This document shows, piece after piece, positions 20,968 through 64,000 of a stretch of 64,000 nucleotides of DNA (positions are counted from its first letter, which is position 1; the number at the start of each line of letters is the position of its first letter). This stretch comes from Geosiphon pyriformis uo1 (lineage: Eukaryota; Fungi; Glomeromycota): the NCBI GenBank assembly GCA_016748015.1, contig JAAOMT010000639.1:124844-188843 (forward strand). The letters run 5' to 3'. A program made the position numbers and the translations under genes. The notes below the pieces were generated by a model. It saw nothing but the letters and a program-made list of their open reading frames with translations, was not told the origin of the DNA and ran no database searches.

Positions 20968-23900
20968 AGCCATGCAAGCAATTCTCTACTTTCTTCAGGA
21001 CACTGCTGATACATGATACCAAAGCTTTGCCATCAAACCCCAAAATTTTAACAAATTCAAAACCAAATTCTTAAGATACTTTAGTAACAATAATAGCATC
21101 AACAAATTAGCCAACATCTTCGCTACAATCAAACAAGGGGAAACTGAAGCAGTTACCACTTACTTGAGATGGTTCCACAGGAACCTATGCCAAATTCAAG
21201 CAATCCAAGATGACTATTTTACAGTGTCACAAATTCTAAACCAGTTCATCTGTGGGTTGCACAGTAGCATCCTCCAATGCGTACACCTAAGATACCCACA
21301 AACTCTTTAGAATGCAGTTATCAATGCACGAGATTTTAAAGCAGCTGAACTAGAAGCCAATTATGCTCAAGCCATAAACTTAGTCATGAATGGATCATCT
21401 GAATTGGATTTCAAATTGAAACAATTCAGTAATTCAATTAATTAGAAATTGGAAAGATACTTAGCTAACAATCGCGCAATATATTAACCATTACAATGAT
21501 GTAATAATTCTGGAAACACAGATCGTTTCCAGAATCAGTTGCATCCAACATCTTCAACCAATCAACAGTGGCAGTAGGAAACACATATTTGCCACTATTG
21601 TGATAGACAAGGACATTTGCAATTTGAATGTCGAAAAAAAATAAGCGACCAGAGATTAGTTAATCAGTATCAAAATTCTGATTGCTGACTACAAACTCAG
21701 AATTATGTCAGTAATTAATCAAACCCAGCTCTATATTAATAAGATTACTTACCTATGATACAGCCAATATATCAAACACCAATGATGCAGCAATTATACT
21801 TATCTCCAGTCTATCAGCCTCCAGTAGCAATTTATCAATCACAGTCCCAATCCAATTATTAGCCGCAGTCTCAGGTAAATTATCCACCCCAACAACATCA
21901 AACACTACCACAGAACTTATCTCAAAACAAAACTCAAAGACCAAGATTAATACAGCAAAGCTGGAGATTGTCAATGGTAGTCTATCAACCAATCTCCAGT
22001 TCCATGGCACAACCATCAGAATCTTGACCATGAAATTTGGGCACCAGGTACACCCAAAACCCAAATTCTCAGAACTATTTAAGTCTTCTGGTTACTCCAG
22101 AAGATGTCCCACCCAATAATCTGAAAACCAACCAAAAACAATCACTTACCAACAACATACCTCCAGCCATCATCACCAATGACGAATTACTAGTAGTGAT
22201 CTTTCCATTCGAACTTGAAGAAACTACATCAGTTTTATTATTCAGTGGAGCTGCTTTTGACACCAAACCAATTACCACTATGTACACTGATGCCAAAGTT
22301 GATGGCCACTCCATTAAACTGATCTTAGATAGTGGATCAGCTGGCAGCATTATTACAAAGCAACTTATGAACCAATTAGGTCGCCAAGTTGATTGTGCTG
22401 CCAGTGCCAGAATTATAACTGCCAATGGAGCAACCAAAACTCCCATTGGTAAGATTGATGACTTCCTTATAGAAGTCAATGGTATTATTGTACCAATTAA
22501 AATATTAGTCATAGAAGTCACCCAATACCAAGCACTCATTAGTAATAATTGGTTATCTAAAACCAACATATCGCTTGATTGGAATACACAGGAGCTTCAA
22601 ATCAGCCAGAACGGATGACACACACATGTACCAGCCACATGTGGCCACTTTACAACCACCTACTTGACAGCACCACTCATAGAGTTCGAAGAAAAAAAAG
22701 AAAAACCTACCTGGGAAGCTTATCAAGTGTCCTGGGCTGGTGAAAAACACAATGAACTGCCACCAGTACCTTCATGGGATGACAATAACAGGAAAAAAAA
22801 GAAAAGAGAAGAACTTATCTGGAATGCTGACCAAAACTGAAAAATCCATAACAATCAGGATGAATTATCAATAACCTGGAAATGGGAAGAGGATAAAATA
22901 AAAAGAAAAGGGAAAAAAAAAAAAAAAATTTCATACCAACTCTTATTTACCCTACATATACGTACACAACACTACAATCAAGCTATTGTCACCCAAAACT
23001 CATATGCATTGATTGTAACAAGAAATTATTGTCAATGGGCACGTGTTGTGATAACAATAAGGAATACTCAACAGCAACCAAATTCTATTGTTGTGCATGC
23101 ATCATAGAACACTTTGGATGTCCAAAACAAAAAGAAAAATAGGACAATGAATCATGCTTGGCTTGTGGTGAAACTTTTCTGGACAAAGAAATGTGAAATG
23201 ACATTCTTAAACAAGAAGAAATGTGTGACAAATCATGTCAATACACAATTCTCATAAGCAACTGGATAAGAAAAGGAATGTTTATAGACACTGCCTGGAG
23301 ATGAGCCATTAAACGTCTGAACAGATGTCCACATGATAATAACAAAATCTGGTAAATGGCACTTGCCAAAATTGAAGGAGCAACCCCAGAAGAAATAAAA
23401 ACAATCAAAGACAACCCATCTGAACTCATAAAACTTAACTGGGACCCAGAACCAGTCATAAATCTACTAGATCCAGAACAATTCTACAAATACTACCAGG
23501 AATTAGCACTTACTAAAAAAGAACAAGAGCAACAGTTGGAAAAAATCAATACTTGACTATGTGACCATTGTTTAATTCTCTGTGACTTCCAATATTGTAA
23601 TGAGTGTGACCTCATTTACAATCCACCACCATGCATAATCTACACAATCTCAGAGGAAGAAAAACCAATCAGCAGCTGTGCATTGGAATTGGAATCAGTT
23701 TCCAATTCCGATTCAGACTTCGACAATAATGACAACAAAAATAACAGTTCCAGCTCTATTCAAAATGGCAATAACAATAACAACAATTCCAACTCGGATT
23801 CAAACTCTGATTCAAACTATGAACAATATATTGCACTCTTTGATCTCACCAAGGAGCAGGAACTAAAATGGTTCAGCAATAATGATAAAGATATTATGCC

Positions 23901-26222
23901 AGAATGCACACATGATACTGACGCAGGATTTGATCTGAGATATCTGGGGAAAGATTCCATTAAATTGGAACCACATTCACACACTTGCATCAATAATGAT
24001 AAAGATATTATGCCAGAATGCACACATGATACTGATGCAGAATTTGATCTGAGATATCTGGGGAAAAATTCCATCAAATTGGAACCACATTCACACACTT
24101 GCATCAATCTGAAAATAGCACTGGAAATTCCAGCAACAACAATGGTTCAATTAGCATCCAGAAGTAGTTTAGCAAAAAGGGAATTAACATTAGAAGAGGA
24201 ATAATTGACACAGAATACATAGAAAATATTATTGCTATGCTACAAAATGATTCAGAAAAGACATATACCATAGATCCAAATAAAAAAATAGCACAGGCAA
24301 TATTCCTACTTCTGATGAAAATAGCTCAATTATTGTCAGTAGGAAACAGGGAGGAATTAGGGATTACAGTTAGAGGGATACAGGGATTTGGATCAATGGG
24401 TATAATAGATATACTAATCAATATGGCAGAAGAAAAAATTGTTGACAAAGAAGAAATTATCTCAACCCATCAAGCAATTTCTATTCCACTATATGACCAG
24501 TATATGTTAGCCATAAAAAGAGAAGTGAAGGATCAAGCTTAATTGTTTGAAGCAAAAGCCACCATTTGTGAATCAGGAGAGATTGGACTTACCAATCTCT
24601 ACATCTCAGCCAACAGCCCCAAAAATATTAAAATTTCCATCCACAACACAACTGGAAACATCATTGAAATACTAAAGGGAACCATTATTGGATATTTAAC
24701 CACTGAAGTTGAGGATTAACCACCAAACCATATTCCAGATTTTCCACAACTGTGTGGATATGTAAACATCACATCACAAACCATCTACAGATAAAGTGGA
24801 TGCTATCTGCTCCAACCAGAACAATTGGAACAGAAAAACATAAAAAATCTAGACCCACTCCAACAGATGTTACTCAACAATTTTAATGACATCTTTGCTA
24901 GCAAAAATGAATTTGGCCACACCAATATCATCTAGCATTAGATCAAAACTAAAGATGCAATGCCAATTAAACAAAAAGCATACAAAGTACCACCACCTAG
25001 CCATGAGATCATTTGTCAAGAAATCAATCAGATGCTTGACAATGAGCTAATTCAGCCATCAATGAGTCCATGGTTGTCACCAGTAGTACTAGTCTGGAAG
25101 AAGAATAGAAAAATTTGCTTTTGTGTAGATTACCAAAAATTGAATGGAGTAACCAAGAGAGACAGCTACCCAACTCCAAAGATCCAAGAACTATTCAACA
25201 CTTTTGGAGGAAACAAATGGTTTTTGACACTGGATTTAGATAGTGGCTACTGGCAAGTAGCTATGGATTTAGCTGAAAAAAAAAAGACCACATTTACAAC
25301 AAAAGAAGAGAATTTTGAATTTGAAATCATGCCATTTGGCTTGATAAATGCTCTAGCAACATTTCAATGGCTCATGGAAATCATATATACTGGACTACTA
25401 TGGAAATCAGTAGTCATATACTTAAATAACACCAATGTATTCTCAAAAACATTCAATGATCATCTGAATCACCTCTAGCAGGTGTTTGAAAGACTAAGAA
25501 GAGCTGGATTGAAACTAAATGCAATGAAGTGTTTCTTTAGAAAAATTGAACTCAAGTTTTTGGGACATGTTGTAAGCAAAGATGATATCAAAATGAATTC
25601 AAATAAGATTGCAATAGTAAAAAACTTTCCAGTACTAACAAACTTGCCAGAACTAAGGGCATTTTTGGGCTTCACAGATTATTATCACCACTTCATTAAG
25701 GACTTTTCCAAACTAGCTCAGCCATTTTACCAGTTACAAACTAAGAATGTAAAGTATGAATGGACTGAAGCTCAACAAAAAGCATTCGACACATTGAGAA
25801 GAAAGCTTATTCAAGCCCCAGTGTTGATGTATTCAGACCACAGCAAACCATTCATTATCACTACAGATGTATTAGGTTAAGCATTGGGAGCAGTACTATC
25901 ACAGAAAGAACCAGATGGAAGAAAACATCCAGTAGCTTATGCCAGTAAAAGCTTAAGTCCAGCTGAAAAGAACTATAGAATTTCAGCACTGAAACACTTA
26001 GCAATCTATTGAGCAGTCATGAAATGGAGAGAATACTTGAGCCAAAAGTTTGAAATATACATGGATCACAAGGAATTGACTTCAATTCAGAAACAAGAAT
26101 TTGCAGACAATTGCCATGCCAGATGAAAAATAGAACTTTCACTATTTAACTATACAGTACATTATAAAAAGGGAAAAAATAATGAAAATACTAATAGATT
26201 GTTATGAATAAAACAAATCTAA
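20968..26222 (+). pseudogene. E2 gag (C-terminal part), PR, Cys-rich domain, dUTPase, RT, RNase H
   Basis: CHYCDRQGHLQFEC; LILDSGSAGSII; AGFDL, RSSLA, KIAQAI, RGIQGFGS; FCVDYQKLN, DLDSGYWQ, YLNN (decayed YLDD); TTDVLG; stop at 26220-26222. Confidence 0.92.
23877..24104 (+). repeat. 114-bp in-frame tandem duplication inside the E2 dUTPase
   Basis: 23877-23990 is repeated at 23991-24104, with CAAT microhomology at the junctions. Confidence 0.95.
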
Positions 26223-27657: not shown

Positions 27658-27689
27658 ACACAGTATACGCAACAAAAGCAATCAAGAAA

Positions 27690-28325: not shown

Positions 28326-28339
28326 AAAGAAGGAGATAA
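28324..28339 (+). promoter_or_regulatory. E2 polypurine tract AAAAAGAAGGAGATAA
   Basis: Immediately precedes the 3' LTR. Confidence 0.9.
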
Positions 28340-30735: not shown

Positions 30736-30950
30736 NNNNNNNNNNNNNNNNNNNNNNNNNNNNNNNNNNNNNNNNNNNNNNNNNNNNNNNNNNNNNNNNN
30801 NNNNNNNNNNNNNNNNNNNNNNNNNNNNNNNNNNNNNNNNNNNNNNNNNNNNNNNNNNNNNNNNNNNNNNNNNNNNNNNNNNNNNNNNNNNNNNNNNNNN
30901 NNNNNNNNNNNNNNNNNNNNNNNNNNNNNNNNNNNNNNNNNNNNNNNNNN
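30736..30950. other. Assembly gap (215 N)
   Basis: Run of N. Confidence 1.
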
Positions 30951-45724: not shown

Positions 45725-45861
45725 TGTTGTCCTGATTGGCCTGAGTAGCTGGTCACGTGTAGAAAAAGCATAATTCACACTTAGTTTATGTCATTTCTTT
45801 GATGTATAGCTTTAGGTAGTGTTTGGATCTCACTCATAAAATGTAATAAAAAAAAAAATAA

Positions 45862-47330
45862 TAATAATATTTATTATATCTAAAAAGCATTATTATTAAT
45901 ATAAATAAAAAATAAATATTATAAATATTATAAACCAAAAACATTATTTAAAACCATTTTTTTTATTTAATTTTTTATTATTATATATATTTTAAACTTA
46001 ATTTTATTAAAAACCAGAATTAAATTTTTTTAACAACCAAGTAATTAAAGATTACTTTATAAAATAGATGCTTTAATATATTTTTAATAATATAATCTTT
46101 ATTAACAACAAAATTTTTTATTTATTTTGTAATAACAAATTTAATTTTTAACTTTTTAGTTCTTTGCAATTTAGTAAGCTTAGATACATAATAAAATTTT
46201 TTATCTTAAATATAATAAACTTAATATTATTAAAACTTGTATCTAAATTTATTAAAATTCGAATATTTAAAGCTTTATTACTGTTGATAAACATCCAAAA
46301 ATTTATTAAAAAAACAAATTTGTTATTAAGCTTTATTTTTAAAGATTTGAAAATTTTCAAACCCAAAATTTTCAACTTATAAAATCTTGAAAAATTTTTA
46401 GTAAAAACATTATTGAACTTTTTAAACCAAGTGTTAACAAATAATTTTTTAAATAATATTTTATATTGTATTTTAATTTAATAATTTTTTTAAAACACAA
46501 AACTTATTAAAATATAATAATTAATATAGTATTTTTAAAACAAATCTACTTAAAATCATCAGTATTTTTAATATTAAACTTTTATCAGTTTTTGTTAACT
46601 TGTTTTTTAAGATTGTTTAATTGTATATTTAGTAAACTATTTAAATTTATTAAAACAAAAATTACTTAATAATTAGTATTAAAATACTTTTTAATATTTT
46701 AAATATAATAATCAACTATAATATTAATAAAATTTGTAAAGACCAATATATAATTAATTGTTTTTTAACTTTTTTGGAAATTTTTTATATAGATATCTTA
46801 ACAATTAAACTTTTTATTAAAGAATTAACAAAACCTAAATTAAAAATTTTTTGAAATTAACATTTTTTTGAAACCTATTTTTATTGAAATCATTTTTTAA
46901 AACTATAAACAAAAATTTATTTACAGTTTTAGCAATTAGTAAATTGATTTTTTTAGTTTAAATTAAATATATAACCAAAACAGCACTAACATAAAACTTC
47001 AAAATAATAATTAAAAACTTATTTTTAAAAAACAACTTAATTAATAAAAATTAATTAACAATTTTAAAAATTTTATATGTTTAGTTAAATAATTGTTTAT
47101 AATAATTATAATATTAAAATCTATATAATCAAATTTTAAACCAAAAATATAGACTTAAATACTATTAAATTTATTCTTAATTTAAGAACAAACTTTACTT
47201 TTTAGTTTTGTCTTAATAACAATAGAAATTAAATTGTTTATATTCTTATATTATTTAATAATATTTTTTTGCTTTACAAAATTGTTTATTTTTCTTATAT
47301 TATATATAACAATATTTCAAATAAAACTAG
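45862..47330 (-). mobile_element. LINE L0, ORF2 N-terminal segment; cut by E4 at the very start of ORF2
   Basis: 46010-46080 reverse-complements to L2 near 34390-34450; 47270-47330 reverse-complements to the ORF2 start of L1 (41064-41120). Confidence 0.72.
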
Positions 47331-48167
47331 TGTTACAAGTAATTATTTGGGGTCTCAAATCAAATAACAAACCCATAACTTGGTGCTTGGCTAATATTCT
47401 GGTGTTGATATCTGAAGGTTTTGTTGGAGAGTTTTTTATATAATAAACAGAAATTTAATTGATGATTTTATTCATAGCTTTCCGAAACCACAGTTTCATT
47501 AAATTTTTTTTTTAGTGTAATGGTCAGTAATTCTCCTGATAAGCTATTTCTAAATCTATAAGTGTTCTACTCTTGTTTCACAGGTCTTTTATCAGTCCCT
47601 ATGATGTCTGTATCTTAGCACTTAATTCTTAATCAATTTAGTAAAACCAAAGAAATAACAAAATAAAATAAAATAAAATAAAAAAATATAAAGAAATGAG
47701 TCAAAGCAATTACAAGTTAGTATCCTATCAATAGCCATGATCAAAAGCTATTGTTCCAGTATAGTTAAGTATCAATTACTATTAACATGAAATGCTGATA
47801 GTAAAAAATAAATTTAAGATAGAGAATAATTATTTATTGATATTTGTGAGTTGGAAGGTTGCTTAGATCAATTCTAAACTAAGAGATCTCTAACTAAAAG
47901 ATTCTGTCTTTTTTCCTTCTAATACTACTGCTATATATACATGATTGAGATTCCTCAATTTCTCAATTCCTTATACCAGAAATCCTAGAATTCCTTTTGA
48001 GAGAAATCCTGGAATTCTGGAATCTTGCGATTCCTTGTCCAAGAATTCTAAAATTCCTGGAATCCTGCAATTCCTCTAAGAGAAATCCTGGAATTTCACA
48101 TTTACTATGGTTATTTCTGATTGGCTAATTTATGCTAATATATACTTCCTATATTCTATAAGTAACA
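47331..48167 (-). repeat. E4 3' LTR (837 bp) with a GGAATTCCAGGATTC-type U3 array
   Basis: TGTTACA...GTAACA; the R/U5 part is homologous to the E1 LTR. Confidence 0.92.
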
Positions 48168-48180
48168 TTATTTCCTCTTT

Positions 48181-48819
48181 TTAATATTGAGCTCCATTGA
48201 GATCTCCCAAATTTCCTAATCATAATTCTCTATCTTTGAGTATTTTCTGAACTTCTTTTTTGAGAATTATTTGTGTTATCCTGTTTTGTAATTCTTCAAA
48301 TTGGGCATTGGTTATTTTTCCCATTTAGTTCACTGTAATAGAGTCTATTTCTAAATTAAGTAAAATTTCTGGTCTGTTTTGGAATCCAGCATGCAATTAA
48401 TAGATGGCTTTTGCTTGTGTTGTTAAATTGTTCTTTCTCATAAATTGTTCTAGTTGTTGTAGTATTATTGTGTTAAATAATTGGTTTGTTTTATTCATGT
48501 ATAAGTTTTGAATATTCAAGTGTCGTCCCAAGTAGAAATAACAAAAGTTTCTTGGAAATTTGTGTATCCACTATTTCCACGTTTTTTTGGTCAATTCTTG
48601 ATATGTGGTGACACTTGTTGGTTTTTCTATTGCTAATTTTATTTTCAGAACCATTTTGTCAATAGTGTTTTCTGTTTTTCTTTGATTTTTGTATTTGGGT
48701 ATTTTTCTGGTATCTTGGTATTAAATGGTTTATTAATTAATAGTAATTTTCATATTCTGTTGTTGAATCAGTTGGAAGATTTGTTGTGCTAGTGAGTAGA
48801 TGTTGTCAGTAATTTCCAT
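48181..48819 (-). pseudogene. E4 ORF3 (213 codons; divergent homolog of E1/E2 ORF3)
   Basis: MEITDNIYSLAQQIFQLI...FCYFYLGRHLNIQNLY...FQNRPEILL...DLNGAQY*; TATAAATA at 48858. Confidence 0.75.
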
Positions 48820-48879
48820 TTTTCTGAAGTCTTTTGTCACATCTACTATGTATTTATATCCTCTTTTTATTGTTCAATA

Positions 48880-50256
48880 TTATGTGTTTGGTCTAATAAT
48901 TATGATTAGTTCCAGATCTTGTGGAATCTCATCTAGTTGGATTAGTATTCTCTGTACTCCTAATTGTGAAATATTATTGGTAGATGGTAATACTATATGG
49001 TAATATGGTTTCAGTTGATTACCATGTGCTGCTTTGGTTAAGATTTTGTTGTTCTATCTTAATTTATAAGCTCCATTTCCAAGAATTTCTTCTATGTAAA
49101 ATGGTCTATCTCATTTGGGGTCAAATTTTCCACTTCATTGTTTTTCTACTTTAGTATGATATAGAAGTACTTTGTCTCCAATTTTGAATTCAGCTGGTTT
49201 ATCTGGTAGTTGGTTATCATGTCTTTTTTTTTGTTTTTTTTGTGACTTTTGGATGTTATCAGCTGCTCTTTGCTATTTGTTTTCTAGTGTCTCCATCAAG
49301 TCATATGTTCTTCTTAGCAACATTTTCTGAAAATTGTCTTCAGTTATTGGTTCTGTTAGATAAGTGTTAACTTCTATCTCAACTGGTAATGTTGCTGTTC
49401 TACTGTATATTAATTTAAATAATGTTGTTTGTGTAGTGTCTTGCTTTATTGTCCAATAAGCAAATAATACTGATGGTATAAACAAATTTTATTTGTTCTG
49501 GTTTTTTTGACTGATCTTGGTGATTGCTTTACACAATATTCTGTTAAATCTTTCAACTAACCCATTTGTTTGTAGATAATATAGTGATAATAATGGTCTT
49601 TTTATCCCAAATCTTTGACTTAATTCTGTCAATGTTTTATTCACAAAGTAAGTTTCTTGATCTGATAGTAGTTTTTTTGGACATCTGTATTAATAGATTA
49701 AATCTTGATAAATGAATTTGGCAATGGATTCTGCATCTGCTCTTTGAATGGCTTTTGCTTCTGGCCATTTTGTAAGATAGTCTATGACTACTGCAATGTA
49801 TCTGTTGTCTTTGCTAGTTATTGTTAACAGTCCAACTAGATCGATTCCAATATGATTTAATGGTTGTTTTACTTTGATTGGTTTCAATAGTTTATTGGGT
49901 TTTGTTCCACCTCTTCTTTGATAAGCATCACAATTTTAAACATATTAAGTGATGTCTGGATACATTAATGGCTAATGGTATCTTTTTCTGATTCTTTTCA
50001 TGATTGCTTTTTTATGAAAATGTCCTGCTGTTGGATCTGAGTACATGTTGAATAATATTGTCTCTTTTTCTGGTTTTGTGATTACTTTGGTTGGTTAATC
50101 TAGATTTTTTTTGTTCTTTCAGTAAAGTATATTTTAATGATTAATAAAATATTTTGATTGTTGTTTTATGTTCTTTTGTTACTTTTGAGATAATTTCTTC
50201 TTGAACAGTTGGATATTTATATAATGTTGAAGTTGTTGATATTTTTGTATATTCAT
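48880..50256 (-). pseudogene. E4 integrase, separate ORF with an intact ATG (459 codons)
   Basis: MNIQKYQQL.., GIDLVG, VERFNR, FKIGDKV; same length as the E2 integrase. Confidence 0.9.
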
Positions 50257-50287
50257 CTTTTATTATATTTTTAGGGTTGAAATGTTT

Positions 50288-53200
50288 TTAAATTTGTCTC
50301 ATTTATGACAATCTATTAGCATTTCCATTTTTTTTTCCTTTTTTATAATGTACTGTGTAATTAAATAGTGAAAGTTCTATTTTCCATCTGACATAATAAT
50401 TATCTGCAAATTCTTGTTTTTAAATTAAAGTTAATTCTTTGTGATTAATGTACACATCAAACTTTTGGCTCAAGTATTCTCTCCATTTTATGACTGCTCA
50501 ATAGATAGCTAAGTGTTTTAGTGCTGGAGTTCTATAGTTCTTTTCAGCTAGACTTAAGCTTCTACTGGCATAAGCTACTGGATGTTCTCTTCTATCTGGT
50601 TTTTTTTGTGATAGTACTGCTCCCAAGGCTTGGCCTGATGTATTGGTGGTAATAATGAATGGTTTGCTGTAATCTGAATATATCAATACTGGTATTTGAA
50701 TAAGCTTTCTTCTTAGTGTGTCAAACACTTCTTGTTAAGCTTTTGTCCATTCATATTTTATATTCTTAGTTTGTAAATAATGGAGTGGCTGGACCAGTTT
50801 AGAAAAGTCTTTGATAAAGCAGCAATAGTACCCTGTGAATTCCAAGAATGTTTTTAGTTCTGTAAGATTGTTTGGTATTGGAAAGTTCTTGACAACTTCA
50901 ATCTTGTCTGGATCTGTTTTGATGCTGTTTTTGCTTACAACATGTCCCAAAAACTTAAGTTCTGTTTTTTCAAAAAAGCATTTGTTGGCATTCAACTTTA
51001 ATTCTGCTCTTCTCAACCTTTCAAACACTTGCTGAAAATGATGTAGATAGTTATCAAATGTTTTGGAAAACATATTTGTGTCATCTAAGTAGACAACTAC
51101 TAATTTCCATAGTAGTCTAGTATAAACAATTTTTATGAGCTATTGAAATGTTGCTGGCATATTTATCAATCCAAATAACATAACTTTAAATTCAAAATTT
51201 CTTTCCCGTGTGGTAAAAGCTGTTTTTTCTTTATCTTCTGACTTCATGACTACTTGTCAGTAACCGCTGTCTAAATCTAGAGTTAAGAACTATTTCTTTC
51301 CTCCAAAAGCATTGAAAAGTTCTTGGATCTTTGGAGTTGAATAGCTATCTCCTTTTGTTACTCTATTCAGTTTTTGGTAATCCACACAGAAGTGGATTTT
51401 TCCATTTTTCTTATGAACTAGTACTACTGGTGATGACTATAGGCTCATTGATGACTGAATTAATCTATTGTCAAGCATTCTATTTATTTTTTGATGAATG
51501 ATTTCATGGCTGGCTGGTAGTACTCTGTATGCTCTCTGTTTAATTGGCATTGCATCTCCAGTCTTGATTTGATGTTGAATGATGTCAGTTCTACCAAATT
51601 CATTTTTGCTGGCAAAGATGTCATTGAAATTATTGAGTAACATTTTGAGCTGTATATGTTGTAGTGGGTCTAAATTTCTTAAATTCATCTGTTTTAATTG
51701 TTCTGGTTGGAGCAGATAACATTCCTTTTATCCATAGATTGTTTGTGATGTGATATCTACATATCTACACAGTTGTAGAAAATCTGGAATGGTATTTGAC
51801 AGTTGATCTTCAATTTTAGTGGTTAAATGTCCAATGATAGTTTCTTCTGATATTTCGATGATATTTCCTGTGTTGTTGTAAATGGGAATTTTGATGTGAC
51901 TGTGGTTTTTTGCTGATATGTGTAAATTGACCAATTTAATTTCTCCTAATTCACAAAGTGTTGCTTCTGTCTCAAAAATCTGTATTTAATCTTTTACTTT
52001 TCTTTCTATAACTACTATGTACTGGTCATATGGTGGAATAGAAATTGATTAACAAGTGAAGATAATTTCTCTCTTGTTAATAACTTCTTCCTTTGTTATA
52101 TTGATTGGTATATCTATTCTACTTGTGGATCCGAATCTTTGTATCTCTTTAGCTGTAATCCCTAATTCTTCCCTGTTTCTCACTGACACTAACTGAGCTA
52201 CTTTAACCAGAGGCAGAAATATTGCCTGTGCTATCTTTTCATTTGGATTTATAATGTCTTTTCTGAGTCATTTTGTAGCATTGCAATAATATTTTCTACA
52301 TATCCTAAATCAATTATTCCTTCTCTAATGTTGATTCCTTTTTTTGCTAAACTACTCCTAGATGCTAATTAAATTATGGTTGTTGTTGGGATTTTTAGTA
52401 CTATTTTGAGATCAATGCAGATGTGTAAATGGGATTCCAATTTAATGGGATTTTTTCCTGGATATCTCAAATCAAACTCTGTATTGGTATTATGCGTGCA
52501 TTTTAGCATAATACTTTCATTATTATTACTAAACCATCTGAGTTTTTGCTTCTTGAAAAGATCAGAAAGTGTGATATATGTTTCAGAGTTTAAATCAGAG
52601 CCCGAATTGTTATTAATTTTGTCCTTATGTTAAACAGAGCTGGAACTGTTATTTTTATTATTGTCATTGTCAGAGTTTGAATTAGGATTGAAAGTTGATT
52701 CCAATTCTGATGCACAGCTGCTGATTAATTCTTCTTCTGGGATTGTGTAGATTATGCGTGGTGGTGGATTGTAAATGAGGTCACACTCATTATAATATTG
52801 AAAGTCACATGAAATCAAACAGTGATCATATAGTCAAATGTTGATTTCTTCTAAGCATTGCTTTTGCTTTTTTTTTGTAAGCACTAGTTCTTGGTAGTGC
52901 TCATAGAATTGTTTTGGGTCCAAAAAATTTATGACTGGTTTTGGGTCCCAGTTGAGTTCTATGGATTTTAGTGGGTTATTTTTGATCATCTTTATTTCTT
53001 TTGGTAATGCTCCTTCGATTTTGGCAAAAGCCATTCGCCAAATTTTGTCATCATTGTGTAGACAACCATTTAAGTTTTTGACTGCTTGTCTCCAGACAGC
53101 ATCTATGGGCATTTTTTTTCTTACCCAGTCACTTATGAGAATTGTGTATTGACACGATTTATCACATGTTTTTCCTCTCTCAGAAATGTTATTCCACATT

Positions 53201-56200
53201 CTTTTATTGAGGAGAGTTTCTCCACAAGCCAAGCATAGCTTATTATCCTATTTTTCTACTCATTTTGGTCTTCCAAAGCATTCAACAAGGCATAAGTGGC
53301 AATAGAACTTAGTTGCCATCTGGTATTTCTCATTGTCACCACAGCATGTACTCATTGATGACAATTTCTTGTCACAATCGATGCATTCTAGTTTTGGGCA
53401 ATAATAATTAGACAATTGTGGTTGCATGTAAATATATGGACGGTGAATGATGGCAGTAGTTAATATTGGTTTTTCTTCTTTTTTCTTGCCTTTTCCTTTT
53501 GTATTTTCCTCCCACTTCTAATTTATTAATTTTTTCTAGTTGTTGTCAGTTTCTCAGACTTGATCAGCATTCCAGGTAAGTTCTTCCTTTTGTTTTCCTT
53601 TTCCATTGTTGTCCCAAGAGAGTATTGGTAGTAGCTCATTGTAGTTTTTGTCAGTCCAGGACACTTGATAAGCTTCTTAGGTAGGTTTTTTTTTTCTTTC
53701 TCGAATTTAATAAGTGAGGCTGATGGTGTGGTGATGGGTTTAAAGTGTCCACACATGGCAGGTACTCACATGTGTTGACTGTTCTGGCTAAGCTGTAATT
53801 CTTGCATGTTCCAGTTAAGCATGGCATTTGTTTTAACTAACCAGTCATTATCAACTAATGCTTAGTACTGCATAGTTTCTATTACCAAAACTTTGATTGA
53901 AGTAATAATACCATTTACTTTAAAGAGAAAATTATCAATCTTGCCAATAGAAGTCTTGATTGCTCCATTAGTTATTATTATTCTGGCACTGGCAGTGTGA
54001 TCAACTCAATGACCTAATTGGTTCATGAGTTGTCGTGTGATAATGCTGTCTACTGATTCACTATTCAGAATGAGTTTGATAGCATGGCCATCTACTTTGG
54101 TGTTAGTGTATATGGTGGTGATTGGTTTTTCCTCGAGTACAGCTTCACTAAACAAAGAAGTTGCTGACAGTTCTTCAATTTCGAAGAGAAATATAGCTGT
54201 GAATGACTTGTTTTCCATAATGGTGGCTGGTGATATGTTGCTAGTAGGTGACTTGTTTTGGTGGGGTTCCCAATTGTTAGGTGAAATGTCTTCTGAAGTA
54301 ACTAGGAGACTTAAATAGTGTTGAACATTTGGGTTTTGGGTGTATCTAGTGCCCAAATTCCATTGTCAAGATTCTGATGGCTGGGTTGAGGAACTGGGAA
54401 TCAGTTAATAGACTATTATTGACAATTTCTAGCTCTGTTGTGTTAGTCTCAGTTTTTGGGTTCTGTTTTGAGATAAGTTTTGGGGCAGTGTTTGAATTGG
54501 TTGGGGTTGATAGATTGCTGAAGACTGTGGCTAATAGATAGACTAAGACTGTGGTTGATAAATTACTGGTGTTGTCAACTAATAAACTGGTGGTTAATAG
54601 AGTGGCTGTTGCATCATAGATAGGTAATTCAGTTGATATGATGCTGGGTTAGGTTGGTAATTTGGAGTTTGAAACCAGCAATTGGGATTTCAATATTGAT
54701 TTTCCGATCGTTGATTATCTATTCTTAACCTGCAGTCAATCTTCAAATGTTTTTGTTTACCACAGTAGTAACAAACACATGTCTCCTGTTGTTACTATTG
54801 ATTGGTCAAAGATGATAGATGCGACTAATTCTGGAAACAATTCACATTTCCTGAATTATTGTGTTATTGTAAAGGTTAATAAATTGTTTGATTGTTAGCT
54901 AAGTATTTTTCTAATTTTTGGTTAATAGAATTACTGAATTGTTTCAACTTAGAATCCAATTCAGATGATCTGTTCATCACTAGATTGACAGCTTAAGCAT
55001 AGTTAGCTTTGAGTTTAGCTGCTTCAAAATCTCTAGCACTTGTAATGGTAGCTTGAAGATCTACTGGATGCATTGGACATATGTATTGGAAGATACTACT
55101 GCACAGGCCTCTAATAAATTGATTTAGGATTTGTGATGTTGTGAAATAATCAGCCTGTATGGCCTGAATTTGGCACAGATTTCTGTGAAAACATCTTAAG
55201 TAAATAGTGACTGCTTCATTTTTTCCTTGCTTGATGATAGTGAAAGTGTTTGCCAATTGGTTGATGCTATTATTATTGCTGAAATATTGTAGAAATGCAA
55301 GCTTGAATGCATTGAAATCTTGGAGTTTGTTAACCAAGCTTTGGTACCATAAATTGGCAGTATTCTGGAAAAAATAGGAGATGGCTTATATGGCTCTGGT
55401 GTCATCTCAACCATTGACTGTGATGGCTTTTTTCATATTATTCAGCCATACTTGGACATTGTTCTCTTCACTAGTGAACTTTTCGAGTTTTGTTATTGGA
55501 ACATAAGCCATTTGGTTCAAGTTTAGTTGTTGTGGTGGTTGAATTTGGAGTTGTGACAGTGGTTGTTATTGTGAAGCAACTGGTGGTGGGTTGATGACAA
55601 TTACTGAAGATAAGTGTTATTGATTATTAATGTCAGAATTTCAATTGTTCTGATTTTGCTAAGTTTGAAAATTCAAAGTTTTGACTTCCAAATTCTCTAA
55701 ATTTAAATCTTGCTGAATCTGAAAGTTTAGGGTTTTAATATTTAGGTTTTTTGGAATTGGGTTCTGATAGGTAAATTCTTGATCTTTGGCTTCTTCTTTT
55801 TCTTTCTCTTCTGATTCCATTATCTCCCAAAGACTTGCATTTCCGAAATCTGGTTGAGGGGGTAGTAATCAGAATCCTGATGGCATTGGTGATTGCAATT
55901 TAAATTCTTTAAAATAATTACCATAGGTTCCTAATAATTCTGTTTTCTTTTGTTTATTTTGAAATAGGAGTCATCCAAATGTTGGTGTTGCATTTGATGT
56001 GGACATGCCTACTGATGTTATGTTAATGGCACTTTTAGGTATATAGTAATAGGATGGGTTGTTTGGTGACTCAACTTTGGTTTTCTTCTAAGTGGATGGT
56101 TATATTCTTTGGAATATTACTGCTGATGTTTGCAGTTTTTTTTTTCTTTATTGGCATAGGTAATTGGGTATCTTTGTTGAATGTGATATTCAATTTCTTT

Positions 56201-56340
56201 ATTGATTTCTGTGATGATGGATGTGAAATTGTGGTTTGTTAGTAGGCTAGTGTTTTAAATTAATTTGTTGTAAAAGGTTTTTCTTGCTGACTTGGTATTT
56301 ACTGGTGTCCCTAACAGATAGGCAATTCTCTTGTTGATGT
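50288..56340 (-). pseudogene. E4 gag, PR, Cys-rich domain, dUTPase, RT, RNase H
   Basis: ORF pieces 54993-55337, 54006-54356, 52834-53232, 51437-51688, 50735-51073 and 50498-50728 are homologous to E2/E5; ends MRQI*. Confidence 0.9.
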
Positions 56341-57227
56341 TGTTACTCATAGAATATAGGAAATATAGTATTATTAGTCAGTAGATATTAACCAATCAAA
56401 GGTAAACGTAGTAAATGTGGAATTCCAGAATTCTTTTCAGAGGAATTGCAGGATTCCAATTCTCCAATGAGGAATTGCAGAATTCCAGAATTCCAGAATT
56501 CCTCTCATCAGGAATTGCAGGATTCCAGGAATCCCAGGATTCTTGTTGCAAAAAATTGAGGAATTGAGGAATTGAGGAATCTCAATTATGTATATATAGC
56601 AGTAGGATTAAAAGCTGAAAAGACAGACCTCTCAGTTTAGATTTAATCTAAGCAACATTCCAGTTCCAATCATCAAATAAATAATTATTTCATATCTCAA
56701 CCCACTTTTTACTATCAACATGAAGTGTTGATAGTAATTGATACTTAACCATGCTGGAACAATAGCTCTTGATCATGGCTATTGACGAGATACTAATGTA
56801 CCAAATTGCCTTGGCTTATTTTCTTTATTTTCTTTACTTTTATTTTCTTTATTTTATTTTCTTTCTTTTTTTGATTTTGTTGTTGTATACTAATTGATTA
56901 AAAGATTAAGCACTGAGTTATTGATGTCAAGAATAGCCTGGTAAAAGACTCAGAAATAATGGTAAGATTTTATATATTATCAGATAGCTTACTAGAAGGG
57001 CACGACTGCCAGACTAAATCCAGCCACCATGCTGAAAAAGAAATTGAGAAAACTCTTAGAAAGATACATCTACTATTGACACTATTGAATCTCTGTTCAT
57101 TATATAAAAGACTCCATCAAAACCTTCAGATACTATACTTGCAGAACCTCATCCATGGAAGTAGCTTTTGAACACCAAATTATGGGTTTGTTATTTAATT
57201 CAACAGCAGAAATATTCACCTGTAATA
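56341..57227 (+). repeat. E5 5' LTR (887 bp) with a GGAATT(C/G)CAGGA U3 array
   Basis: TGTTACTCATA...CTGTAATA; TATATATA at 56591; PBS follows. Confidence 0.92.
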
Positions 57228-57289
57228 TTTGGTGCTCCCTGTGAAGTATAATCTTACAGAGAACCAGCACCAACAAACATTATCCAAAA

Positions 57290-60200
57290 GTGGCAGAATC
57301 AGAAAATATAGAAGCAAACCATTTAGGATTCACAAAATCCTTATTTCAACACTATTGTCAATACTTGGGATTAAACCACAATCATATATCCACCAAATCA
57401 GCCTTCAATTTCTACATCAACGAAAAGATTTCTTCTTTATTAGAAACATCAGTGAATACTGAATCAGCAAGAGAAACTTTTTATAGGGAGTTAATTCAAA
57501 ACACCAACCTACCAACAAATCATAATTTCACATCTATCATCACTGAGATCAACAAAGAAATTGAACACCATACTCAACAAAGATATCCAATTACATATGC
57601 TAGTAAAGACAAGGGAAAACTACAAATACCAGCAGTAACACCCAGAAAAATACAGCCACCTACTTGAAAGAAAAACAGAATTGAATCCTCAAGCAATCCA
57701 TCTTACCACTATACACCTGGAAGCACCATCAACATATTAGCAACAAACACATTCCCATCAACTATGACATCAGCATTTGGACAATTCCCATTCCAAAGTA
57801 GACAAAAAAAAACAGAATTATTAGAACCATATGGTGAATACTTTGAGGGATTTAATTCACAATTATCAACCCCATCAGGACTTTGATCACCACCACTTTC
57901 ACCAGATTTTAGAATCTCTGATCTGTGGGAAGCAGCAGAATCAGAAAAAGAGGAAGAAGAATCAAAAAATTAAGAATTCACTTACCAGCACCCGATCACT
58001 GAAAACCCGGAAGTTGAAACCCTGAATTTTCAAACTCAGCAAAATCTAAATCTAGAAAATTCAGAAATCAAAACTCTGAATCATTAAAAGCAGAACAATC
58101 CAAACTCCAAATTAATTAATCAGCAAAACTTACCTCCAGTAATTGTCATCAATCAACTGCCAATTAATCCCATAGCCAAACCTATACAACAGCCACTTCA
58201 AGTACCACCCCAACAACCATTACCTTTTCAACAACCACTTCAACAATCACCACAACCACCCAACTTAGATCCAATGGCCTACGCACCAATTACAAAACTT
58301 GACAACTTTACCAACGAAGAGGACAATGCTCAAGTATGGCTGAATAATATAGAAAAGGCCATCACAGCCAATGGATGGAATGATGCCCGGACAATGCAAA
58401 CTATTTCCTACTTTCTCAAGGATACCACCAATTCATGGTACTAGAGCTTGATTAATAAACCATAAGATTTTGATGCTTTCAAAGTGGAATTTCTAAGATA
58501 CTTCAGCAACAATAACAGCATCAATCGCCTAGTCAACACATTTACTATCATGAAACAAGGAGAAACTGAAGCAGTCACCACTTACCTGGGATGCTTCCAT
58601 CAAAATCTGTGCCAAATTCAAGCAATTGATGCCAACTACTTCACAGTACCACAGATCCTCAACCAGTTTATCCGTGGCCTGCACAGCAGCATCTTGCAAC
58701 ATGCACATCCATTACATCCAGGCATCTTTTAAGACACAGTCACATGCACTAGAGATTTTGAATCCGCTGAGTCAGAGGCTAATCATGTCCAAGCCATTAA
58801 TCTAGTAATGAATGGATCATCTGAATTGGATTCCAAATTGGAGAAGTTCAGTGAATCAATTAATAAGAAACTGGAAGGATACTTAGCTGACAATTATCCC
58901 ATTTATTAGTCTTCACAATGATGCAATAATCAAGGAAACTCTAATTATGCCCAAAATCAACCATGTCCATCTTAATTGACCAATCAACAGTGGCAACAGA
59001 AAATGTGTATCTGCCACTATTGTGGTAAACAAAGACATATCCAAATTGACTTTTGCCAGCATTTAAATAACCAATGATCAGGAAACCAATATTGAAACTC
59101 TGATCGCCGGTTCCAAACTTCAAATCAGTATCCAAATCAAAACCAACCCGCTTACCTACCAGTGACGCAGTCATCAGTCTATTAATCTCTGGTGTATCAA
59201 GCTCCAATCTATCAACCACAGCCACAAGTAATTTATCAACAACTGCAGCCACAAATAATCTATTAGCCCCAACAAATCCAAACACCACCCCAAAGCTTAC
59301 CACCCAATGAAACCCAAAGACTGAGAATGACTCAACAGAGCTGGAGATCAGTAATAGTAGTCCATCAACCAATCCCCAGTTCTTCACAGCAACCATCTGG
59401 ATTATGCCAGCAGAATTCAGGTGCCGGTCAACCCCAAAACCCAAATTCTCAGAACTATTTAAGTCTCCTGGTCACCTCAGAAGACATCTCAACTAATAAC
59501 CTGGCATTCGCCCAAAAACAACCACTCACCAGTAATATCACATCTGCTACCATCACCAAAAATGAGTCTTTGGCTGCTATATTCCCATTCAAATTTGAGG
59601 AAACAACTGCAATGCCATTATTTAATGGAGTCACTCTTGAAGCCAAACCAATCACTGCGATGTATATTGATGCCAAAGTCGAGGGACAATCTATCAAATT
59701 GATCTTTAACAGTAGTTCAGCAGGCAGCATCATCACACGACAACTCATAGATCAATTAGATCACCAAGTTGATTGAGCTGCCAGTGCCAGAATCATTACA
59801 GCCAATGGAGCAACCAAAACTCCAATCGGCAAAATCAACAACTTCCCTTTCGAAGTCAATGGCATTGTAACTCTCATTAAAGTTCTAATTATGGAAGCCA
59901 CTCAATACCAAGCTCTCGTTGGTAATGACTGGCTATCTAAAGTCAATGCAATGTTAGACTGGAACACCCAGGAACTCCAGCTAACATATCAGGGCCAACA
60001 CATATGTGTACCAGCCACGTATGGCCATTTCAAGACTCCTTCAAGAGAGAAACTATTAATCAAACTGGAGGAAGAGAAAGAGAAACCTACCTGAGAAGCT
60101 TACCAAGTCTCCTGGGCCAACACTGACCACAACAAACTATTACCAATACTCTTGTGGAACGACAACCCTAAGGGAAAGCAAAAAGAGGAACTGACCTAGG

Positions 60201-63200
60201 AAACAGATAATTTGACCTGGACCGACAACGAACAGGAAGAACCATCAAGTTGGGAGTAGAAAGAAGAAAAGGGAAAAGTGAAAGAGAGGGAGGAAGAAAA
60301 CACTCAAGCCAACAACACTTATATCTCATACACTTATGGTCAACAACAATCATTGATCTATCACTGATCCAAACTGATATGCATTGATTGCGGCAAGAAA
60401 TTGTCATCAATGGGCGTGTGCTGTGGCGACGATAAAGAATATCAGACGGCAACCAAGTTCTATTGCCGTGCATGCCATGTTGAACATTTTAGAAGACCAA
60501 AACAAGTGGGAAAATGGGATAATACACCATGTATAGCCTGTGGAGAAACTCTTCTTGACAAAGGAATGTGGAACAACATTTTGGAGAGAAGAGGAATATG
60601 TGACGTGTTCTACCAATACACGATCCTCATCAGTGACTGGGTCAAGAAAGAAACACCCATAGAAGCTGCCTGGAGAAGAGCTGTACAGTGATTGGACAGT
60701 TGTCCACATAACAATAATGAAATTTGGAGAATGGCAATCAGCAAAATAAAAGGAGTGACACCTAAAGAGATCAAAGAAATCAAAAACAACCCACCAGAAT
60801 CCAACAAGTTTGACTGAGACGCAGAGCCAGTCATAAATTTTCTGGAACCAGAAGAGTTCCATAAACACTACCAAAACTTGGCACTCACTAGAGAAGAGCA
60901 AGAACAACAGCTAGCACAGTTGAATACAAGACTGTGTCACCATTGTTTAATTCCCAGTGACTTTGAATATTGTGACAATTGTGATTGCATTTACAATCCA
61001 CCACCATGCATGATTTACACAATCCCTGAAGAGGAAGAGCCAATCAGCAGTTGCACATCGGAGTTGGAATTGCCACTCGATCCCAATTCAAACCCTGACA
61101 ATGACGATGATGAGAATAATGGTTCTAGCTCTGTTCAAAATGGCAATGACAAGGACAACAATATCAACTCAGATTCAAACTCCGACTCAAACTATGAACA
61201 ATATATTGCACTTTCTGACCTTACTAAGGAACAAGAACTGAAATGGTTCAGTGATAATAATAAAGGTATTATGCCAGAATGCATACATGATATTGATGCA
61301 GGATTTGATTTGAGATATCCAGGAACAGAAGCCATCAAATTGGAACCACATATGCGCATCTGCATCGATTTGAAAATAGCACTGGAAATTCCAGCAACAA
61401 CAATAGTTCAATTAGCATCTAGAAGTAGTTTAACAAAAAGAGGAATTAATATAAAAGGAGGAATAATTGATGTGGAATATGTGGAAAATATTATTGCTAT
61501 GCTACAAAATGACTCAAACAAGGCCTATATAATAGAGCTGAATGAAAAGATAGCACAGACAATATTTTTACCTTTGGTTAAGATAGTTCAGTTAGTACTG
61601 GTGAGAAACAGGGAAGAGTTAGGAATAACAGCAAAAGGGATACAGGGATTTGGGTCAACGGGTAGAATAGATGTACCAGTTAATATGGCAGAGGAAAAAA
61701 TTATTGGCCAAGGAGAAATTATTTCAACTGGCCAAGCTATTTTCATTCCACCATATAGCCAGTATATGCTAGCAATAGAAAAGAAAAAAAAAGAGCAAAA
61801 ACAGATTTTTGAAGCTAAAGCAAGCCTTTGTGAATCAGGAAAGATTGGACTGATCAATCTCTACATATCAGCCAAAAGCTATAGCCACATAAAAATTCCC
61901 ATCTACAACAACACTGGCAATGTCATCAACATACCAGAAGAAACCACCATTGGATATTTAACCACAGAAATAGAAGACCAACCACCAAACCCCATTCCAG
62001 ACTTTCCACAACTTTGTGGATATGTTAACATCACATCACAAACAATCTATGGACAAGATAAATGTTATTTACTCCAACCAAAACAATTGGAACAAATAAA
62101 CATGGGAAACTTAGATCCATTCCAACATATGCAGCTCAAAATGTTGCTCAACAATTTCAAAGACATCTTTGCCAGTGAAAACAAGTTTGGCCGAACTGAC
62201 ATCATTCAGCATTAGATCAAGACTGGAGATGTAATGCCAATCAAACAAAGAGCATACAGAGTGCCGCCAGCCAGCCACAAGATCATCCATCAAGAGATAA
62301 ACCGAATGCTTGACAATGGGCTAATTCAACCATCAATAAGCCCATGGTTGTTACCAGTAGTACTTGTTCGTAAAAAGAATGGGAAAATCTGATTTTGTGT
62401 GGACTACAGGAAACTCAACAGTGTAATGCGTGGAGACAGCTATCCAACTCCACAAATACAGAAATTATTCGACACTTTTGGTGGGAACAAATGGTTTTCA
62501 ACATAAGACTTGGACAGTGGTTATTGGCAAGTAGCTATGAATCCAGCTGACAAAGAGAAGACAGTATTCACCACTAGAGAAGGGAATTTTGAATTTGAAG
62601 TGATGCCATTTGGGTTAACCAACACACCAGCCACTTTTCAACAGCTAATGAAAATTGTCTATACTGGCTTATTGTGGAAATCAGTAGTTGTATACTTGGA
62701 CAACACCAATGTATTCTCAAAAACATTTGATGATCATCTTCATCATCTTCAACAAATGTTTGAAAAACTAAGAAGAGCACAGCTAAAGTTAAATGCAACA
62801 AAGTGCTTCTTTAGCAAGACAGAGCTAAAATTCTTGGGACACATAGTCAATAAAGATGGCATCAAAACGGATCCAGAGAAAATAAAAATAGTAAAGAACT
62901 TTCCAGTACCAACCAATGTGACTAAATTGAAATCATTCTTGGGATTTGCGAGCTATTATTGACACTTTATAAAAAACTTTTCAAAGATAGCTCAACCACT
63001 CAATAATCTGCAAACCAAGAATACCAAATATGAATGGACAGAAAGTCAACAAGAAGCTTTTGATATTCTCAAAAGAAAGCTCATTCAAGCTCTAGTACTG
63101 ATCTATTCAGATCACAACAAACCATTCATCATTACTACTGATGCATCAAGCCAAGCATTGGGAGCAGTATTATCTCAGAGAGGACCAGACGGCAGAGAAC

Positions 63201-63496
63201 ATCTAGTAGCATATGCCAGCAGAGGTTTAACACCAGCTGAAAAGAACTATGGAACACCAGAACAAGAACACTTAGCAATATACTGAACAGTCATGAAATG
63301 GAAAGAATACTTGAGCCAAAAGTTTGAAGTATACACAGATCACAAGGGATTAACATCACTCCAAAAACAAGAATTTGGAGATGGAAGACAGTCAAGATAG
63401 AAAATGGCACTTACACCATACAATTATATTATACATTACAAAAAAGGAAAAGACAATGGAAATGCTGATGGTTTGTCATAAATGAGACAAATCTAA
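57290..63496 (+). pseudogene. E5 gag, PR, Cys-rich domain, dUTPase, RT, RNase H polyprotein (about 2069 codons, one frame, nonsense mutations)
   Basis: ORF pieces at 57290, 58484, 59327, 59891, 60401, 60878 and 62510 are all in the same frame as the final MRQI*. Confidence 0.92.
61240..61670 (+). pseudogene. dUTPase domain of E5
   Basis: All five trimeric dUTPase motifs: AGFDL, RSSL, GGIIDVEYVE (decayed G.ID.GY.G), EKIAQ, KGIQGFGSTG. Confidence 0.92.
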
Positions 63497-63558
63497 GAAC
63501 ATTTTAACACAAAAATATAACAAAACCAGAACAATACCAACAAAAAATGTAACAAAAG

Positions 63559-64000
63559 ATGAACATACAAAAATATCAACAACTGCAACATTATATAAAC
63601 ACTCAACAGTTCAAGGAGAATTTATCTTAAACAGAATAAAAGAGTATCAAACAACAATCAAAATATTTTATCACTCACCAAAATATACTTTATCGAAAAA
63701 ATAGAAAAAATCTAGATTAACCAACCAGAGTAGTTACAGAACCAGAAAAAGAGACAATATTATTTAACATGCACTCAAATCCAACAGCAGGACATTTTCA
63801 CAAAAAAGCAACCATGGAAAGAACCAGAAAAAGATACTATTGGCCATCAATGTATTCAGACATCATCCAATATGTTTAAAATTGTGATGCTTGTCAGCAA
63901 AGAGGGGGTATAAAACCCAGTAAACCATTAAAACCAATTAAAGTAGGACAACCATTTGACTGTATTGGAATTGATCTAGTCGAACCATTAACAATTACCA
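63559..64000 (+). pseudogene. E5 integrase N-terminus, separate ORF with an ATG (truncated by the window)
   Basis: MNIQKYQQLQHYIN..MHSNPTAGHF..YYWP..CDACQQR..GIDLV; in a different frame from RT-RH. Confidence 0.9.

What the first reader, a model, noticed from the sequence alone, without database searches (positions are those of the whole stretch)
61240..61670. Complete dUTPase between protease and RT in a gypsy family
Seen: all five dUTPase motifs are in frame in Pol of E5, with homologs in E2 (about 23860-24410) and E4 (about 52115-52545); family B lacks it. Established: dUTPases occur in betaretroviruses (before PR), non-primate lentiviruses (between RH and IN) and ERV-L (after IN), and only sporadically in LTR retrotransposons. 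Inference: an independent capture at the PR-RT position, possibly countering uracil incorporation into cDNA.
Basis: partly seen in the sequence, partly recalled or inferred. Interest (0 to 1): 0.7.

Follow-up and report, generated by a model that had tools for sequence, protein, structure and literature searches.

The report
Dead gypsy element with doubled dUTPase
This broken copy of a jumping gene, from a family best matched in the fungus Geosiphon, carries a five-motif dUTPase between its protease and reverse transcriptase (a layout already known), which likely kept uracil out of the element's new DNA when it was alive, followed by a second, motif-less domain predicted to have the same fold.

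Summary
Confirmed: a five-motif trimeric-type dUTPase (D1, 61229-61672) lies in frame between protease and RT of a Ty3/gypsy element, with broken homologues in E2 and E4 and none in family B. The layout is not new: it is published for Postia, Tuber, rotifer and planarian elements. E5 is dead (23 stops), and two motif residues are hit by G-to-A decay. All 120 listed homologues are Geosiphon pyriformis proteins. The capture is not local: intact relatives from unnamed metagenomes share D1 (one branch, 97/99), and no bacterial, phage or viral donor above 47% identity turned up. Modelled alone, D2 matches only the dUTPase/dCTP-deaminase fold (top 22 rows, best Z 9.3), and it shows the same third-position excess of changes as D1. 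Likely mechanism: Gag-Pol brings D1 into the particle to remove dUTP during reverse transcription; D2 is a non-catalytic relic kept for a structural job. Two earlier scan notes saw the same D1+D2 pair on other DNA. Modest interest.

The parts
56341..57228 (+). 5' LTR of element E5 (end approximate), followed by a PBS-like stretch at 57230-57246
   Evidence: matches the LTRs of E1, E2 and E4 at 72-79%; ends read
58274..59056 (+). gag: capsid domain and one CCHC knuckle (59012-59056), broken by stops
   Evidence: Retrotrans_gag E 8.6e-9; translation
59651..60019 (+). aspartic protease, catalytic DSG decayed in E5
   Evidence: gag-asp_proteas E 8.5e-8
60371..61015 (+). Cys-rich insert (Cys1 60371-60817; a CxxC...CxxC segment near 60932-60988) of no known family, likely zinc-binding
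   Evidence: conserved in 5 of 5 long D2-bearing relatives tested; only LIM at E 0.015 in Pfam; nothing in PDB, PHROGs or the Atlas; 21 of 41 transversion sites at third positions
61229..61672 (+). D1: five-motif trimeric-type dUTPase, two motif residues decayed
61673..62005 (+). D2: second, motif-less domain predicted to have the dUTPase fold
   Evidence: model pLDDT 60.7; fold searches; 22 of 36 transversion sites at third positions
62216..63478 (+). reverse transcriptase and RNase H, with stops
   Evidence: RVT_1 E 2.8e-29, RT_RNaseH E 3.3e-31
63730..64000 (+). start of integrase (other frame; runs off the window)
   Evidence: the homologous E2 integrase has H2C2, core and SH3-like parts and no chromodomain
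23860..24743 (+). E2 copy of D1 (internal 114-nt duplication, frameshift) and D2
51779..52545 (-). E4 copy of D1 (frameshift, stop) and D2

Best explanation
E5 is a dead copy of a chromodomain-less Ty3/gypsy family whose Gag-Pol frame holds a five-motif dUTPase (D1) that likely hydrolysed dUTP inside the particle to keep uracil out of the cDNA, followed by a motif-less domain (D2) predicted to share the dUTPase fold and likely kept for a structural, non-catalytic job. Shown: domain order, single frame, decay of the window copies, intact motifs in relatives, one D1 branch across several element families, D2 and Cys1 confined to a sub-branch, and coding constraint on D1 and D2. Inferred: gag and pol are co-framed, so each polyprotein would carry D1 into the particle; the protease would release a D1 or D1-D2 piece; D1 would work as a homotrimer like retroviral dUTPases. 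The capture is old and precedes the split between the Geosiphon-type families and the unnamed metagenome families; the donor is unidentified. D2 most simply arose by tandem duplication of D1 and loss of its motifs (about even odds against a second, separate capture).
For: Pfam, PDB and fold matches of D1. All 13 scored motif residues are intact in 13 of 17 unnamed relative proteins that cover them (18 examined) and in 6 of 6 metagenome loci, at only 40-56% identity to E5. L005 is one open 2018-codon frame gag-PR-dUTPase-RT-RH, and P0161 is open from PR through Cys1, D1 and D2 into RT. Among E2, E4 and E5, transversion-variable sites fall at third codon positions in 14 of 20 (D1, p 9e-4), 22 of 36 (D2, p 6e-4) and 53 of 70 (RT). 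The 22 gypsy D1 rows form one branch (97/99), and the 11 D2-type rows a nested branch (95/90), in a 48-row tree. D2 modelled alone: the top 22 of 48,161 chains are all of the dUTPase/dCTP-deaminase fold (best EBV dUTPase Z 9.3, rmsd 3.5, 104 aligned; first unrelated row Z 5.1); Foldseek lists dUTPases first in the PDB (E 1e-3) and in BFVD (E 2.7e-4). Retroviral dUTPases are homotrimers needed mainly where host dUTPase is low (PMC4531489, passages).
Against: No activity, expression or oligomer state is shown. Only 7 of 119 Geosiphon copies that cover the sites keep all 13 residues, and E5 does not. Family B spread in the same genome without a dUTPase, so the enzyme is not essential for transposition in this host. 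The third-position excess also appears in the gag-PR linker (52 of 112, p 0.003), so it shows coding constraint, not catalysis. The D2 model is of middling quality (pLDDT 60.7, pTM 0.46). By sequence, D2 aligns to D1 in the expected register but without significance (HH probability about 1%, E 0.04-0.1), and a D2 profile does not prefer its own lineage's D1, so duplication is not shown. The trees lack host fungal, endobacterial, Tuber, Postia and rotifer dUTPases.
Confidence: 0.72

Rival explanations
1. D2 is not a copy of D1 but the relic of a separate, older dUTPase capture; D1 came in later, upstream, and took over the catalytic job.
For: No significant sequence link between D2 and D1; the best hit of the D2 profile among 68 dUTPases is a copia-type element's dUTPase over 32 residues (E 5e-4); the top BFVD row is a lentiviral Pol at 23% identity. 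Fungal elements acquired dUTPases repeatedly (PMC2864245, section 5).
Against: D2 is absent from all 16 relatives outside the nested branch (one of them, P0225, ends before the position), and those sit on both deeper sides of the D1 tree, so an older D2 needs at least two losses.
Confidence: 0.35
2. One reading: this family itself captured a dUTPase recently, for example from the host or from a bacterial endosymbiont.
For: Family B in the same window lacks it; the named homologues found all come from one species.
Against: At least four Geosiphon subfamilies at 44-57% identity to E5 and unnamed intact elements with 50-65% RT identity share the same D1 branch and its N-terminal flank. Best outside matches: 47% in GTDB genomes (80 of 224 loci kept), 44% among listed phage records, 43% in 9 viral contigs. 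These scans were pattern-limited and did not target fungal endobacteria.
Confidence: 0.07
3. D1-D2 acts as one unit with a job beyond dUTP removal, such as a two-domain trimer mimic or a protein-binding module like the motif-less dUTPase-related proteins of herpesviruses.
For: D2's fold matches include the EBV and pseudorabies monomeric dUTPases and the motif-less herpesvirus proteins ORF10 and pp71; D2 is under coding constraint and travels with the Cys-rich insert.
Against: D1 keeps all five motifs in the usual order, unlike herpesvirus enzymes, which rearrange them (PMC4531489, passages); the herpes rows are tied with ordinary dUTPases within about 1 Z unit; relatives without D2 have equally intact motifs.
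Confidence: 0.2
4. The dUTPase is a neutral passenger that never mattered to the element.
For: The window copies are decayed; family B lacks it.
Against: Motif residues are kept across families that differ in about half of their D1 residues; third-position excess in D1.
Confidence: 0.04

Closest known systems
PosPlaTy3-5 of Postia placenta, with the dUTPase-bearing elements of Phanerochaete chrysosporium and Tuber melanosporum Tmt1 (PMC2864245, section 5 read; the two original papers were not read)
   Same: Fungal Ty3/gypsy LTR element with a dUTPase inside Pol; PosPlaTy3-5 has it between PR and RT, and Tmt1 is cited for the same position (PMC5408684, passages).
   Different: The paper's dUTPase tree is described as of chromodomain-containing elements, and this family has no chromodomain. 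No second dUTPase-fold domain or Cys-rich insert is mentioned in what I read. Sequence kinship could not be tested.
Juno, Vesta and TelKA LTR retrotransposons of bdelloid rotifers (PMC5408684, passages)
   Same: dUTPase between PR and RT; no chromodomain; Juno also has an extra zinc knuckle in this interval.
   Different: Animal host, third ORFs, knuckle behind rather than before the dUTPase; no second fold copy reported.
Burro giant gypsy-like elements of planarians (PMC6431247, passages)
   Same: dUTPase-like domain between PR and RT in one long frame with extra domains.
   Different: Giant elements with other cargo; kinship untested.
Retroviral dUTPases of betaretroviruses, non-primate lentiviruses and ERV-L (PMC4531489, passages)
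   Same: Five-motif homotrimeric enzyme made as part of the polyprotein; the model for the inferred role.
   Different: Other positions in the genome; an ERV-L-like row (P0316) falls outside the gypsy D1 branch.
Herpesvirus two-domain dUTPases and motif-less dUTPase-related proteins
   Same: Two dUTPase folds in tandem; one fold copy without the full motif set.
   Different: Herpesvirus enzymes rearrange the motifs; here D1 has all five and D2 none. Resemblance of architecture only.

Membership tests
Trimeric dUTPase (PF00692), D1 | Profile match above the curated cut-off | tested here: met
   65.8 bits against 22
Trimeric dUTPase (PF00692), D1 | Five motifs in order I-V with catalytic residues | tested here: met
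   Order met in E5 with 11 of 13 residues; all 13 in P0161, L001-L006 and 7 of 119 Geosiphon copies. The E5 copy itself is probably impaired.
Trimeric dUTPase (PF00692), D1 | dUTPase beta-fold | tested here: met
   Top rows of the fold search are dUTPases, Z 8.1, on a low-confidence model
Trimeric dUTPase (PF00692), D1 | dUTP hydrolysis and homotrimer | not testable with these tools
   needs an assay
dUTPase-fold superfamily, D2 | Fold shared with dUTPase/dCTP deaminase | tested here: met
   model pLDDT 60.7
Active dUTPase, D2 | Motifs I-V and profile match | tested here: not met
   No Pfam or PHROG dUTPase hit; no motif residues at the aligned positions
Ty3/gypsy LTR retrotransposon | LTRs, gag, and pol order PR-RT-RH-IN | tested here: met
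   E5's 3' end lies outside the window, E2 shows both LTRs (87% alike)
Chromovirus (as described for the basidiomycete dUTPase elements) | Chromodomain behind integrase | tested here: not met
   The E2 integrase ends after an SH3-like module with no chromodomain hit at E<=5; none in the integrase tail of L005
Same capture event as Tmt1, PosPlaTy3-5 or the rotifer elements | One clade in dUTPase and RT trees | not testable with these tools
   No tool returned those sequences
Herpesvirus-type monomeric dUTPase | Motifs rearranged over two fold copies | tested here: not met
   All five motifs lie in D1 in the usual order

The most novel reading that the evidence does not exclude
One gypsy sub-lineage has evolved, independently of herpesviruses, a two-domain dUTPase in which a catalytic fold is paired with a dead fold copy that serves assembly or a new binding job, together with an uncharacterised zinc-binding insert; intact natural versions (P0161) make this directly testable.
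Probability: 0.25. Interest if true: 0.6.

Novelty: new variant of a known kind. Interest (0 to 1): 0.33.

Why it matters
The flagged layout is known, so on its own this is a further member. It adds three things. A dUTPase-bearing gypsy lineage that made hundreds of copies in a Geosiphon-type genome and has intact relatives in metagenomes. Natural intact enzymes with which the open question of what a dUTPase does for an LTR retrotransposon can be tested. And a tandem motif-less fold copy that may parallel how herpesviruses derived non-catalytic proteins from dUTPase. Many annotated 'dUTPase' genes of Geosiphon are fragments of this family, which matters for gene counts.

Tried and rejected
No whole genome was held, so copy number rests on protein hits and on 3074 contig pieces laid at 95% or more in one DNA run (possibly the window's own source, not independent). 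No RNA holder was listed. A three-copy complex job on D2 of P0161 gave no answer (score 0.00; the alignment was not used). A metagenome scan with P0161 found 0 relatives among 158 pattern matches. The RT tree (27 rows) leaves family B in an open fork and has no gypsy outgroup, so gain versus loss of the dUTPase in family B is unresolved. An apparent likeness between the PR-RT spacers of family B, L006 and the metagenome clade scored no better than shuffles and was dropped. Classical RIP was considered for the decay and rejected: TpA is depleted (0.63-0.70) and C-to-T change shows no CpA preference. The Cys-rich insert matched nothing in PDB (best E 0.74), PHROGs or the Atlas (best 0.78) and was not modelled. 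The Atlas look-up of D2 gave only unnamed clusters under 0.9. Two rows were read in the wrong frame and redone. Names were looked up for 12 of the 150 representatives (7 Geosiphon, 1 Salix, 4 unnamed); four more were already named. No named Glomeromycotina other than Geosiphon appeared, but those lists are capped or word-limited, so this is no proof of absence. Literature searches showed no paper on this family's dUTPase or on a tandem fold copy; the library lacks most subscription papers, and the dUTPase tree in the old-format supplement of PMC2864245 was not seen.

Full report
Observation. The flagged interval lies in the open piece 60818-62215 (P0001) of a Ty3/gypsy element (E5) whose gag, protease, RT and RNase H share one frame. 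It matches Pfam dUTPase at E 4.3e-18, 65.8 bits against a cut-off of 22, and 67 PDB sequences. All five motifs are in order. The copy is dead: 23 stops in 1735 codons, and G-to-A-type changes at the motif III glycine and the motif V arginine. Homologues lie in E2 (23992-24410, with a 114-nt duplication and a frameshift) and E4 (52542-52112, minus, frameshift). E1 has lost everything from just after the protease to the 3' end of pol. Family B (13251-20963) has none.

Host and family. P0001 finds 560 proteins among 7708 candidates; the 120 listed are all Geosiphon pyriformis hypothetical proteins, 62-83% identical. The window is therefore probably from that fungus or a close relative (inference). 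LTR elements cover 41.2% of the G. pyriformis genome (PMC11952901, passages). The copies decay mostly by transitions on both strands: 1477 transition sites, 405 transversion sites and 137 three-state sites among E2, E4 and E5, with CpG at 0.13-0.23 of expectation and no TpA excess. This fits deamination of methylated cytosine (inference), not classical RIP. All 13 scored motif residues survive in 7 of 119 copies that cover them, but each residue is the commonest at its site.

The capture is old and shared. The representative search and follow-ups gave intact relatives from unnamed metagenome records. P0161 is open from protease through D1 into RT. L005 is one 2018-codon frame gag-PR-dUTPase-RT-RH. 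L001-L004, L006 and the P0269 group have PR-dUTPase-RT. All 13 residues are intact in 13 of 17 such proteins that cover them (18 examined) and in 6 of 6 loci. In a 48-row tree (20 of 68 rows dropped as redundant or long; the 68-row quick tree agrees) the 22 gypsy D1 rows form one branch, 97/99, apart from bacterial, phage, plant, copia-type and ERV-L-like dUTPases. Outside matches stay low: at most 47% in GTDB genomes (80 of 224 loci kept), 43% in 9 viral contigs, and 44% among the 15 listed of 924 phage records, all under 60%. The donor is unidentified; host fungal and endobacterial dUTPases were not in the tree. The RT tree cannot say whether family B lost the gene or never had it.

Directly behind motif V lies a 111-residue domain (D2, 61673-62005) with no Pfam or PHROG match. 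Its strand pattern in the joint model repeats that of D1. Modelled alone (pLDDT 60.7, pTM 0.46), it matches only the dUTPase/dCTP-deaminase fold: the top 22 of 48,161 chains belong to it, best EBV dUTPase at Z 9.3, rmsd 3.5, 104 aligned, against Z 5.1 for the first unrelated row. Foldseek agrees (PDB E 1e-3; BFVD E 2.7e-4). D2 has none of the five motifs. A profile built from 113 copies of E5's own subfamily finds D2 behind D1 in 9 of 9 rows of the nested branch tested (E 8e-4 or better) and in 0 of 16 other relatives, one of which ends before the position. The D2-type rows form one nested branch, 95/90. The same sub-branch carries a Cys-rich insert before D1 (5 of 5 long members, 0 of 16 others, some of which start too late) that matches nothing known. 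Against a simple story: D2 aligns to D1 in the right register but without significance, and its profile does not prefer its own D1, so duplication is inferred from position and nesting only.

Selection. Among the three window copies, transversion-variable sites fall at third codon positions in 14 of 20 (D1), 22 of 36 (D2), 21 of 41 (Cys1), 36 of 44 (protease) and 53 of 70 (RT), but not clearly in the PR-Cys linker (27 of 66) or the acidic linker (4 of 11). The gag-PR linker also shows the excess (52 of 112), so the test shows coding constraint while the family was active, not catalysis.

Mechanism. Shown: one frame, order, intact motifs in relatives, constraint. Inferred from retroviral enzymes (PMC4531489, passages): the polyprotein carries D1 into the particle, the protease frees it, and a homotrimer turns dUTP into dUMP so that RT puts less uracil into cDNA, most useful where host dUTPase is low. 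Family B shows that the enzyme is helpful rather than essential. D2 cannot be catalytic by its sequence and likely has a structural or binding job. I put this reading at about 0.7.

What is known. A dUTPase between PR and RT is described for Postia PosPlaTy3-5, with Phanerochaete and Tuber elements cited (PMC2864245, passages and section 5), for rotifer Juno, Vesta and TelKA (PMC5408684, passages) and for planarian Burro (PMC6431247, passages). A vertebrate metavirus also has a dUTPase (PMC11011659, passages), and dUTPase domains are enriched with other retroelement domains in Entomophthora muscae (10.1101/2023.09.13.557621, one passage). The original Tuber and Phanerochaete papers were not read. 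This family lacks a chromodomain, so it is probably a separate lineage from the basidiomycete elements, but kinship was not testable. Searches showed no paper on this family's dUTPase or on a tandem fold copy; subscription papers and one old-format supplement were not seen. The scan's own notes list 26 findings with these words in at least 2 genomes, and two of the 8 shown describe the same second motif-less domain on other DNA. I had that reading before the look-up; the notes are not independent support.

Verdict. A real domain in a known layout, in dead copies. The new element is the D1-D2 pair with a Cys-rich insert in one sub-lineage, and the intact natural relatives that make function testable. 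New variant of a known kind; interest 0.33.

Noticed in passing
window 60371-61015 (+); P0161 residues 344-556: Cys-rich insert between protease and dUTPase, conserved across four Geosiphon subfamilies and P0161, of no known family; L005 has a different Cys-rich insert at the same place that shares only the last CxxC...CxxC segment.
   Followed up: partly
window E2, E4, E5 and the 120 Geosiphon proteins: Decay is dominated by C-to-T change on both strands in all contexts, with CpG nearly gone and no TpA excess: heavy methylation-type decay rather than RIP.
   Followed up: partly
window 47326-64000: E5 sits in the leader of E4 in opposite orientation: E4's alignment ends at 56340, where E5's LTR begins (56341).
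   Followed up: partly
window 13251-20963 (-): Family B element with both LTRs (90% alike) nested inside the gag of E2; a further broken frame follows its integrase (about 14640-14000).
   Followed up: no
window 6250-11250 (-): E1 is an internally deleted family A copy: just after the protease it jumps to the 3' end of pol (junction near 8130).
   Followed up: partly
window 39250-45730 (+): A nearly complete non-LTR retrotransposon (ORF1, then endonuclease, RT and RNase H-like parts by eye), G+C about 0.41, with few stops; related fragments near 33200-35900.
   Followed up: no
window 56900-58270 (+) and 27600-28350 (+): The long leader before gag and the stretch behind E2's integrase hold broken frames of 130-250 codons that are conserved between copies; possible accessory genes.
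   Followed up: no
L006:72-1604: In this relative the dUTPase follows the protease almost directly and about 150 residues separate it from RT, whereas in the P0269 group the spacer lies before the dUTPase: the domain's place within the PR-RT interval varies.
   Followed up: partly
L005 (whole locus): Intact gypsy element in apparent head-to-tail arrangement: integrase tail, an extra 232-codon frame, then a 2018-codon gag-pol frame and integrase in a separate frame.
   Followed up: no
proteins P0314, P0315, P0317, P0318: Copia-type polyproteins of 2200-2300 residues from mostly unnamed sources also carry an intact dUTPase, upstream of the integrase region; they fall outside the gypsy D1 branch.
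   Followed up: no
window 30736-30950: Run of 215 N (assembly gap), away from the finding.
   Followed up: no
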